From Octopus vulgaris (Eukaryota): a DNA stretch of 64,000 nucleotides. Within the stretch, counting starts at the first letter, position 1. The number at the start of each line of letters is the position of its first letter. The notes below the pieces were generated by a model that ran no database searches, had not been told where the DNA came from, and saw nothing but the letters and a program-made list of their open reading frames with translations. The DNA is taken from positions 28,520,001-28,584,000 of the forward strand of contig OX597831.1 of assembly GCA_951406725.2 (NCBI GenBank), in the 5' to 3' direction. Positions 55,734 to 58,700 of this stretch are shown in pieces. The translations under genes and the position numbers were made by a program.

Positions 55734-58700
55734 TATTAAATTAGTATCTAATTCTCTCACCCTTATTAATTAATTATAATTATGCTGCATTTATTTCTAA
55801 ATGCTGTATTTGTTTTCCGTGAAAGTTTGGCGCGCTGTTAGTTGGCGCATTTGAATTATAACGTCGGATGTAATCAATTGAACCACACGCGTATTTATCG
55901 TTATGGTAAAATCTGGCGTGTGATTGAGTGGATTTCATCCAGATAGTTTTGGCTGACGAGCTACAAATGGATTTTTTTTGTAAGTAAAATTACATTTAAT
56001 TCATTAATAGCGAAACAATTGTCCCAAAATAATCTGTATTTTTGTTATTTTTTATTTGCCCTGTCCGTGTGAGCTAACAATCGTACTGACTTTCATGGGA
56101 AACATGTATTTTCGTGGTTGAAACCTTTTGGATTAACTGGTGCTAGAGTGAGCCATATAGTGACCACTCTCTTATATTTATTTTGTAAAAATAATATAAT
56201 ATGTTATAAAATATTATAATAATCCAGGTTTCTCGTAGCACTAGGCCACTTGGTGTTGAATAGATATACTATTAAATTAGTATCTAATTCTCTCACCCTT
56301 ATTAATTAATTATAATTATGCTGCATTTATTTCTAAATGCTGTATTTGTTTTCCGTGAAAGTTTGGCGCGCTGTTAGTTGGGGCATTTGAATTATAACGT
56401 CGGATGTAATCAATTGAACCACACGCGTATTTATCGTTATGGTAAAATCTGGCGTGTGATTGAGTGGATTTCATCCAGATAGTTGTGGCTGACGAGCTAC
56501 AAATGGATTTTTTTGTAAGTAAAATTACATTTAATTCATTAATAGCGAAACAATTGTCCCAAAATAATCTGTATTTTTGGTTATTTTTTATTTGCCCTGT
56601 CCGTGTGAGCTAACAATCGTACTGACTTTCATGGGAAACATGTATTTTCGTGGTTGAAACCTTTTGGATTAACTGGTGCTAGAGTGAGCCATATAGTGAC
56701 CACTCTCTTATATTTATTTTGTAAAAATATTATAATATGTTATAAAATATTATAATAATCCAGGTTTCTCGTAGCACTAGGCCACTTGGTGTTGAATAGA
56801 TATACTATTAAATTAGTATCTAATTCTCTCACCCTTATTAATTAATTATAATTATGCTGCATTTATTTCTAAATGCTGTATTTGTTTTCCGTGAAAGTTT
56901 GGCGCGCTGTTAGTTGGGGCATTTGAATTATAACGTCGGATGTAATCAATTGAACCACACGCGTATTTATCGTTATGGTAAAATCTGGCGTGTGATTGAG
57001 TGGATTTCATCCAGATAGTTTTGGCTGACGAGCCACAAATGGATTTTTTTTGTAAGTAAAATTACATTTAATTCATTAATAGCGAAACAATTGTCCCAAA
57101 ATAATCTGTATTTTTGTTATTTTTTATTTGCCCTGTCCGTGTGAGCTAACAATCGTACTGACTTTCATGGGAAACATGTATTTTCGTGGTTGAAACCTTT
57201 TGGATTAACTGGTGCTAGAGTGAGCCATATAGTGACCACTCTCTTATATTTATTTTGTAAAAATATTATAATATGTTATAAAATATTATAATAATCCAGG
57301 TTTCTCGTAGCACTAGGCCACTTGGTGTTGAATAGATATACTATTAAATTAGTATCTAATTCTCTCACCCTTATTAATTAATTATAATTATGCTGCATTT
57401 ATTTCTAAATGCTGTATTTGTTTTCCGTGAAAGTTTGGCGCGCTGTTAGTTGGGGCATTTGAATTATAACGTCGGATGTAATCAATTGAACCACACGCGT
57501 ATTTATCGTTATGGTAAAATCTGGCGTGTGATTGAGTGGATTTCATCCAGATAGTTTTGGCTGACGAGCTACAAATGGATTTTTTTTGTAAGTAAAATTA
57601 CATTTAATTCATTAATAGCGAAACAATTGTCCCAAAATAATCTGTATTTTTGTTATTTTTTATTTGCCCTGTCCGTGTGAGCTAACAATCGTACTGACTT
57701 TCATGGGAAACATGTATTTTCGTGGTTGAAACCTTTTGGATTAACTGGTGCTAGAGTGAGCCATATAGTGACCACTCTCTTATATTTATTTTGTAAAAAT
57801 ATTATAATATGTTATAAAATATTATAATAATCCAGGTTTCTCGTAGCACTAGGCCACTTGGTGTTGAATAGATATACTATTAAATTAGTATCTAATTCTC
57901 TCACCCTTATTAATTAATTATAATTATGCTGCATTTATTTCTAAATGCTGTATTTGTTTTCCGTGAAAGTTTGGCGCGCTGTTAGTTGGGGCATTTGAAT
58001 TATAACGTCGGATGTAATCAATTGAACCACACGCGTATTTATCGTTATGGTAAAATCTGGCGTGTGATTGAGTGGATTTCATCCAGATAGTTTTGGCTGA
58101 CGAGCTACAAATGGATTTTTTTTGTAAGTAAAATTACATTTAATTCATTAATAGCGAAACAATTGTCCCAAAATAATCTGTATTTTTGTTATTTTTTATT
58201 TGCCCTGTCCGTGTGAGCTAACAATCGTACTGACTTTCATGGGAAACATGTATTTTCGTGGTTGAAACCTTTTGGATTAACTGGTGCTAGAGTGAGCCAT
58301 ATAGTGACCACTCTCTTATATTTATTTTGTAAAAATATTATAATATGTTATAAAATATTATAATAATCCAGGTTTCTCGTAGCACTAGGCCACTTGGTGT
58401 TGAATAGATATACTATTAAATTAGTATCTAATTCTCTCACCCTTATTAATTAATTATAATTATGCTGCATTTATTTCTAAATGCTGTATTTGTTTTCCGT
58501 GAAAGTTTGGCGCGCTGTTAGTTGGGGCATTTGAATTATAACGTCGGATGTAATCAATTGAACCACACGCGTATTTATCGTTATGGTAAAATCTGGCGTG
58601 TGATTGAGTGGATTTCATCCAGATAGTTGTGGCTGACGAGCTACAAATGGATTTTTTTTGTAAGTAAAATTACATTTAATTCATTAATAGCGAAACAATT

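What the first reader, a model, noticed from the sequence alone, without database searches (positions are those of the whole stretch)
56012..56023. Palindromic stem III (ACAATTGT) predicts dimer-dependent cleavage, which would make the tandem arrangement functional
Seen: stem III is only AC/GT closed by AATT, and the whole 8-mer is a perfect palindrome. Established: minimal type I hammerheads of newt satellite and Penelope-like elements have weak palindromic stem III and cleave as double hammerheads. Inference: adjacent units pair through an 8-bp ACAAUUGU duplex, so multimers cleave well while the released monomer is relatively stable.
Basis: partly seen in the sequence, partly recalled or inferred. 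Interest (0 to 1): 0.7.

Follow-up and report, generated by a model that had tools for sequence, protein, structure and literature searches.

The report
Pairing hammerhead in a tandem retrozyme
The palindrome is real and lies in a hammerhead (self-cutting RNA) motif carried by every 536-base unit of a protein-free repeat with about 1,800 copies in this animal genome; two neighbouring motifs are predicted to pair through it and cut better than one alone, a design already in print, and the repeat is likely pasted in by Penelope-type retrotransposon enzymes.

Summary
Observation confirmed: ACAATTGT (56015-56022) is stem III plus loop of a complete type I hammerhead, repeated in each 536-bp unit of an 18-hammerhead array. 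The element is a non-LTR retrozyme: about 1,800 copies, no ORF, inserted in (TA)n.

Support for pairing: across 17 hammerhead sequence clusters in this genome, 13 have a fully self-complementary tetraloop (9 different palindromes). In 14 of 17 the two central loop bases are complementary, which only a two-copy duplex can use. Folding models favour the double hammerhead about 125-fold; a non-palindromic loop reverses this.

Strict dimer dependence is not shown. A 2-bp stem with a tetraloop is the invertebrate type, and invertebrate retrozymes cut well as single motifs. Tandem copies are needed to release a monomer in any case. The motif is also not minimal (12-bp stem I, 52-nt stem II domain).

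The dimer model and the palindromes are published. A side result: all 40 two-armed insertions have one end at unit position 291 and the other near 160, like the two start sites of Penelope reverse transcriptase. The scan noted the same features earlier in other genomes. No cleavage or expression was shown here.

The parts
56015..56022 (+). Palindromic stem III and loop ACAATTGT (2 bp plus AATT tetraloop; predicted 8-bp inter-unit duplex)
55953..55959 (+). Hammerhead core CUGANGA (C3-A9), first copy
55960..56011 (+). Stem II domain, 52 nt: 4-bp base GCUA/UAGC, 2x2 internal loop, 8-bp and 5-bp extensions
56012..56014 (+). Core G12-A13-A14
56023..56023 (+). C17; predicted cleavage 3' of this base (GUC triplet)
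   Evidence: sequence plus hammerhead consensus; cleavage not tested
55940..55952 (+). Stem I 5' strand
   Evidence: compensatory changes in older subfamilies
56024..56036 (+). Stem I 3' strand; first bases of the unit-length RNA (unit position 1)
56024..56558 (+). First full repeat unit (535 bp; modal 536 bp), no ORF; units at least 99.4% identical
55733..64000 (+). Long arm: partial unit (246-536) plus tandem units. It continues past the window to G000:C18:28585422, ends at unit position 291 in (TA)n, and holds 17 full units and 18 hammerheads, 15 complete in the window
55647..55733 (-). Short inverted arm, outer end at unit position 161, joined to the long arm by a 1-base overlap
55584..55646 (.). 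(TA)n microsatellite at the left insertion boundary

Best explanation
The palindrome is stem III of a type I hammerhead in each unit of a 536-bp non-coding tandem repeat, likely a non-LTR retrozyme, and it is predicted to let two neighbouring hammerheads pair into a double hammerhead that cuts better than a single one. Shown: the motif, its covarying stem I, about 1,800 copies, palindromic loops across families, and insertion in (TA)n with two fixed ends. Inferred cycle: an array is transcribed; neighbouring units swap stem I strands and form the 8-bp ACAAUUGU duplex, so each core cuts its neighbour's GUC site; the 536-nt monomer is ligated to a circle in which the lone 2-bp stem III re-cuts slowly; a Penelope-like RT/GIY-YIG protein nicks both strands of a (TA)n target, starts copying at unit position 291 on one strand and near 160 on the other, and runs round the circle to give two outward-facing tandem arms joined at a variable point. 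I commit to 'dimer-enhanced, monomer weak', not to 'dimer only'.
For: Families: 6,841 core matches with a free tetraloop against 12 for the reversed pattern; further searches gave 921 vs 13 and 62 vs 4. Of 28 clusters made from 119 distinct hits in fetched loci, 17 have stems I and II. The script called 11 Watson-Crick palindromic, 2 wobble and 4 not. Two of those 4 were ties that the listed rows resolve (TCGA in 47 of 50 rows; GCGC 5 rows vs AAGC 1; counted by hand), giving 13 of 17 with 9 different palindromes. The inner pair is complementary in 14 of 17 (nominal p 3e-6). Of the 11 clusters without stems only 2 are palindromic. AATT is kept in 1,825 of 1,828 young copies and 58 of 60 older ones that are mostly 70-85% identical to the unit, whose stem I shows 3 pairs changed on both sides. 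Energies: the double fold lies 8.7-9.3 kcal/mol below two single folds, against +0.7 to +2.5 with an AAAA loop. Ensemble at 25 C: active double 3.4e-4 vs single 2.7e-6; AAAA reverses the order; AAAA with UUUU restores it. Copying: 40 of 58 loci are two-armed and all 40 have one end of each kind. Arms read through the cut site (1 of 80 inner ends at position 1). Units differ by 1.2 substitutions within loci and 10.6 between (25 loci). No array fixed for a dead core was seen. At least 16 open 781-aa GIY-YIG frames exist; one examined also has an RT domain.
Against: No cleavage, circle or transcript was observed. Invertebrate retrozyme monomer constructs cut efficiently (PMC7229834). Closing the single stem III costs only 1.0-1.5 kcal/mol over the open form, and the model has no tertiary terms, so its absolute populations mean little. 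The 12-bp local stem I forms first during transcription and must be swapped, a possible kinetic trap (inference). Within this family loop conservation is weak evidence: 41 of 536 positions vary between arrays, so 4 unchanged positions are expected about 73% of the time (my arithmetic). Clusters share ancestry, so the binomial p-values are nominal. 4 of 17 clusters are not strictly palindromic. Eight of nine Xenopus dimer constructs did not cut (preprint 10.64898/2026.07.22.740005). The Penelope-like element found shares no DNA homology with the unit, so the partner is unproven.
Confidence: 0.62

Rival explanations
1. The hammerhead cuts efficiently as a single motif, stabilised by its long stems I and II. 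The palindrome only adds a second route or a modest boost, and circles are protected by proteins or by an alternative fold.
For: 2 bp plus tetraloop is described as the invertebrate type, and coral and mussel monomer constructs cut at about 0.8 and 0.1 per min. Stems I and II form with probability about 0.99 in the isolated motif and closing stem III costs 1.0-1.5 kcal/mol. A 4-bp stem II base and 7-bp stem I base with internal loops resemble the canonical spacing (6 and 4 bp). An alternative GAC/GUC pairing that blocks the core appears in the predicted fold.
Against: The inner loop pair cannot form in a hairpin, yet it is complementary in 14 of 17 clusters. The axolotl 2-bp motif is slow alone and much better as a dimer. 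I could not see whether the coral and mussel assays excluded dimers in trans (supplement unreadable).
Confidence: 0.22
2. The ribozyme is nearly inactive on its own in either form and needs the Penelope protein or a chaperone. Arrays are copied mostly from uncut multimeric transcripts and lengthened by unequal crossing-over.
For: The anole PLE hammerhead cut only when protein was added, and its mutants did not affect insertion in vitro (PMC11167929). Minimal PLE dimers cut poorly. There is no pile-up of truncations at the cut site. Some arrays are mosaics of variants (window, L015, L216).
Against: Core-inactivating changes were not seen fixed in an array, whereas N7 varies between subfamilies. 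6 of 25 loci carry a private variant in every full unit. Copying linear multimers with 5' truncation can only shorten arrays, yet 12-17-unit arrays occur (inference).
Confidence: 0.12
3. The palindrome is a chance or inherited by-product with no role in pairing.
For: About 7% chance for one family; within-family conservation is uninformative.
Against: Nine different palindromes in 13 of 17 clusters, with double changes inside clusters (GATC/AATT, CTAG/CATG) and an ATGT wobble variant beside ATAT.
Confidence: 0.04

Closest known systems
Metazoan non-LTR retrozymes (Cervera and de la Pena 2020, PMC7229834; Li et al. preprint 10.64898/2026.07.22.740005)
   Same: Non-coding tandem units of low GC, one type I hammerhead per unit, dispersed arrays, coexistence with PLEs. 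Axolotl HHR_Amex2 has the same 2 bp plus tetraloop helix III and is dimer-enhanced. A 536-bp unit lies within the 51-972 bp range of the preprint.
   Different: 52-nt stem II domain in place of a short hairpin; unit longer than the 170-400 nt of the 2020 paper; two-armed insertions with two fixed ends are not described in the sections I read; expression and circles not shown here.
Double hammerheads of ASBVd and newt satellite 2 (Forster et al. 1988, seen only as cited in PMC4209133 and PMC6466107) and palindromic loop III of repeat hammerheads (PMC3088659 Fig. S8 legend)
   Same: Short stem III with a self-complementary loop that becomes a full duplex between two tandem motifs.
   Different: The amphibian Amex1 type has one pair plus a palindromic tetraloop; this motif has two pairs, so dependence on the dimer may be weaker.
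Penelope-like elements, Neptune and Poseidon clades (PMC8557442; PMC11167929)
   Same: (TA)n targets, tandem plus inverted 5'-truncated copy, two reverse-transcription start sites, both target strands cut and extended.
   Different: No ORF; the two ends lie about 130 nt apart, not the 30-40 nt tail; canonical C3-G8 core, not a minimal one; no DNA homology to the intact PLE examined.
Dolichopoda pDo500 satellite (PMC2837043, passages)
   Same: About 500-bp tandem unit with a hammerhead; single and double forms proposed; compensatory changes in stem I.
   Different: Its proposed double form keeps stem III within one strand and exchanges stems I and II; insertion architecture not compared.

Membership tests
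Type I hammerhead ribozyme | Core CUGANGA, GAA, A15.1-U16.1 and NUH site in type I order | tested here: met
   intact in all 15 complete copies in the window
Type I hammerhead ribozyme | Stems I, II and III can pair, with covariation | tested here: met
   97% of cells paired in 6 sequences, 3 stem I pairs changed on both sides (carried by 2 related older copies); stem III never varies
Type I hammerhead ribozyme | Loop 1-loop 2 tertiary contact | not tested
   helix lengths are compatible; contact bases were not assigned
Type I hammerhead ribozyme | Self-cleavage at H17 | not testable with these tools
   needs an assay; only contigs, no raw reads
Double hammerhead | Short stem III with self-complementary loop, in tandem copies | tested here: met
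Double hammerhead | Double fold more stable than single folds | tested here: met
   secondary-structure model only
Double hammerhead | Monomer inactive or slow, dimer active | not testable with these tools
   kinetics needed; published precedents point both ways
Minimal PLE hammerhead (min-HHR) | No or 2-nt loop III, extra base before stem II, short stem I | tested here: not met
   tetraloop, no extra base, 12-bp stem I
Non-LTR retrozyme | Tandem non-coding units, each with a type I hammerhead, low GC | tested here: met
   GC 32%, all six frames closed
Non-LTR retrozyme | Dispersed mobile copies without LTR structure | tested here: met
   PBS and PPT were not searched separately
Non-LTR retrozyme | Expressed as linear and circular unit-length RNA | not testable with these tools
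   no listed holder is on record as RNA; circular template inferred only from array structure
Non-LTR retrozyme | Mobilised by an autonomous PLE in the same genome | tested here: inconclusive
   intact RT plus GIY-YIG frames and PLE-like insertion marks, but no shared DNA with the unit

The most novel reading that the evidence does not exclude
These insertions record the full Penelope integration step on a circular template: one enzyme dimer holds one RNA circle, primes the two target strands at two fixed sites about 130 nt apart (one per arm, 40 of 40), and rolls round the circle. Dimer-only cleavage is then the mechanism that keeps animal retrozyme circles intact, which Cervera and de la Pena left open. 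The near-alternating live and dead cores at locus L015 would be a copied two-unit circle, a genomic trace of cleavage in vivo.
Probability: 0.35. Interest if true: 0.6.

Novelty: new member of a known kind. Interest (0 to 1): 0.3.

Why it matters
The dimer idea is established, so the finding as written is not new. The value is as a test system. This is a very young, homogeneous family with an easily mutated loop, in a genome holding many families with different palindromes, so it can settle whether invertebrate 2-bp-stem hammerheads are dimer-dependent or only dimer-enhanced, and how retrozyme circles avoid re-cutting. The one-start-site-per-arm rule gives exact coordinates for testing how Penelope enzymes copy retrozymes, a partnership so far inferred from co-occurrence and homology.

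Tried and rejected
Expression: no RNA holder listed; 20 of 24 listed runs hold the unit, none on record as RNA. Contigs of 8 runs laid cannot show strand, ends or circles, so they are not used as evidence.

A-to-I editing: A>G changes at unit positions 57 and 66 in guessed-RNA runs also occur in the deep runs X15 and X17, and these positions also vary between genomic arrays. Rejected.

Run-off at the cut site as a mark of cleaved linear templates: 1 of 80 inner ends at position 1. Only 10 copies of the unit start lack the preceding C; of these 3 are small changes at C17, 1 an internal deletion, 3 fold-back joints and 3 joints to other sequence. No clear excess. The control search was mis-designed and yields only a copy count (2,027), so this test has no matched control.

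An array fixed for a dead core (would favour cutting by a neighbour): not found among 14 G8 and 4 G12 variants; 3 of those 18 loci gave no parse and in 1 more the variant copy was missed.

Autonomous partner by DNA homology: none in 30 GIY-YIG loci or 4 longer stretches (best E 0.02 and 0.06).

Structure count was out of register and is discarded; one search replaces it.

Literature: no paper on such elements in cephalopods turned up in three searches (one search was too loose and listed 20 of 4,965). The supplement of PMC7229834 and file 1 of PMC4209133 could not be read and may list related motifs; Rojas et al. 2000 was not held.

Full report
1. The observation. Bases 56012-56023 are GAAACAATTGTC; the palindrome ACAATTGT is 56015-56022. 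Upstream lie CUGACGA (55953-59) and a 52-nt stem II domain; a 12-pair stem I with one A-A mismatch closes the motif, so this is a complete type I hammerhead with a GUC site. It recurs in 536-bp units at least 99.4% identical, with all six frames closed. The array continues 1.4 kb past the window: 17 full units, 18 hammerheads. Rfam sees it only weakly (HH9, E 0.067). The motif is not minimal.

2. Is the palindrome more than chance? For one family, no: the core largely fixes AC/GT and a tetraloop is palindromic about 7% of the time. AATT is kept in 1,825 of 1,828 young copies and 58 of 60 older copies, but only 41 of 536 unit positions vary between arrays, so this is weak. Across families the signal is strong. 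Patterns that left the loop free or restricted only its first base gave 6,841 matches vs 12 control, 921 vs 13 and 62 vs 4; the first two listed only 100 rows each. I clustered the 119 distinct hits in loci fetched by then into 28 groups, 17 with stems I and II. Eleven were called palindromic, two wobble, four not; two of the four were ties that the listed rows resolve, giving 13 of 17 (hand count). Nine palindromes occur: AATT, ATAT, CTAG, CATG, TGCA, TCGA, GCGC, GATC, ACGT. The two central bases, which cannot pair inside a hairpin, are complementary in 14 of 17 (nominal p 3e-6; groups are related, so this overstates it). Of 11 groups without stems, 2 are palindromic. This is the best evidence that pairing between two copies is selected.

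3. Folding. In a two-unit transcript the double hammerhead is a nested structure with swapped stem I strands; the unconstrained minimum already swaps them. With fixed structures the double form is 8.7-9.3 kcal/mol below two single forms, and an AAAA loop removes the advantage. In ensemble terms at 25 C an active double core is about 125 times more populated than an active single one; AAAA in both units reverses this; AAAA with UUUU restores it; in the circular monomer the active fold lies 6.5 kcal/mol above the ensemble. These models lack tertiary terms, and closing the single stem III costs only 1.0-1.5 kcal/mol over the open form. They support 'favoured', not 'required'.

4. What the papers say. 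The Fig. S8 legend of PMC3088659 (passages) notes palindromic loop III across many ribozymes. PMC7229834 (passages and parts 2-4 of 6) reports monomer constructs cutting at about 0.8 per min (coral) and 0.1 per min (mussel), bp plus tetraloop the more stable invertebrate type, finds the axolotl motif of that type at 22% in 1 h alone and much better as a dimer, and leaves open what protects the circles. Preprint 10.64898/2026.07.22.740005 (parts 1-3 of 5) derives retrozymes from PLE terminal repeats; 1 of 9 dimer constructs cut. PMC11167929 (parts 1-2 of 4) shows a PLE protein cutting and extending both target strands from two internal start sites, and a hammerhead that needs protein. PMC8557442, PMC2837043 and PMC6466107 were seen as passages.

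5. The element. I examined 58 loci: 18 picked because both strands matched, 34 taken from listings on contig C1 without regard to arms, 6 more. Forty have two outward-facing arms (18 of the 34 unselected). All 40 have one outer end at unit position 291 and one near 160; one end read as 328 is an alignment overrun, and the '160' class takes alignment ends of 150-200 because alignments run into (TA)n, with exact ends at about 156-161. Of 18 one-armed loci, 9 end near 160, 7 at 291 and 2 elsewhere. Older copies show the same ends. Inner joints are spread over the unit, and arms read through the cut site, so the template was a circle or an uncut multimer. Units differ by 1.2 substitutions within and 10.6 between 25 multi-unit loci; 6 of 25 carry a private variant in every full unit, as copying round one circle would give, though homogeneous source arrays would too. 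G8 and G12 variants are rare (14 and 4 copies) and not seen fixed in an array. The genome has at least 16 open 781-aa GIY-YIG frames among 148 matches (150 of 6,136 candidates scored); one has GIY-YIG above and RVT_1 just below the Pfam cut-off. It shares no DNA with the unit, so it is a candidate partner only.

6. Mechanism. Shown: motif, covarying stem I, cross-family palindromes, insertion architecture. Inferred: transcription, cutting, ligation to a circle, PLE-driven copying. I put 0.62 on dimer-enhanced cutting with a weak monomer, 0.22 on an efficient monomer, 0.12 on protein-assisted or dispensable cutting, 0.04 on chance.

7. Novelty. A new member of a known kind. The long stem II and the strict one-start-per-arm rule were not in the sections I read (searches; unread supplements may bear on this). 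The scan noted both, and the covarying palindromes, in other genomes; I looked these up after reaching my reading, and they are not independent support. A look-up by sequence found nothing. Interest 0.3.

Noticed in passing
L131 (G000:C1:180104500-180109000): A second tandem family, 353-bp unit, with a short-stem-II hammerhead and TCGA loop, ending in (TA)n.
   Followed up: partly
L130 (G000:C1:94812000-94815500): A third tandem family, 399-bp spacing, long stem II, TGCA loop.
   Followed up: partly
L031-L060, e.g. L034, L050: The commonest hammerhead group (ATAT or ATGT loop) occurs mostly as solo or inverted copies, many ending about 50 nt after the cut site in (TA)n.
   Followed up: partly
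L132:2745-6172, L133, L134: Intact 781-aa Penelope-like ORF (RT, Cx4CxxC linker as described for Neptune, C-terminal GIY-YIG). Read by eye, its terminal repeat holds a U3-A8 minimal hammerhead with an ACATGT palindrome and two ends about 40 nt apart that loosely resemble the two ends of this family.
   Followed up: partly
L015 (G000:C3:179746900-179753720): A G8A dead core in 5 of the 9 full units of one arm, in a near-alternating pattern; could be a copied two-unit circle or a recombination or assembly mosaic.
   Followed up: partly
window 56024-64000: A stem I variant recurs in full units 1, 5 and 12 and a stem II variant in units 2 and 14, without a clean period; unexplained.
   Followed up: partly
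window 55829-55836 and the same place in each unit: TTTGGCGC, an E2F-like site (motif recalled, not tested); an older copy (L148) has TTTGGCGG there. Possible promoter element.
   Followed up: no
L063, L085, L127, L128: A dispersed family with a hammerhead-like core, non-palindromic TGAC loop and no adjacent stem I; may be a differently wired motif.
   Followed up: no
window 34884-35576: Degenerate fragment of 18S rRNA (Rfam RF01960, 77.7 bits) with a 256-nt insertion.
   Followed up: no
window 6619-7094 and 33716-34083: Related SINE-like repeats in two-copy tandem (periods 216 and 184).
   Followed up: no
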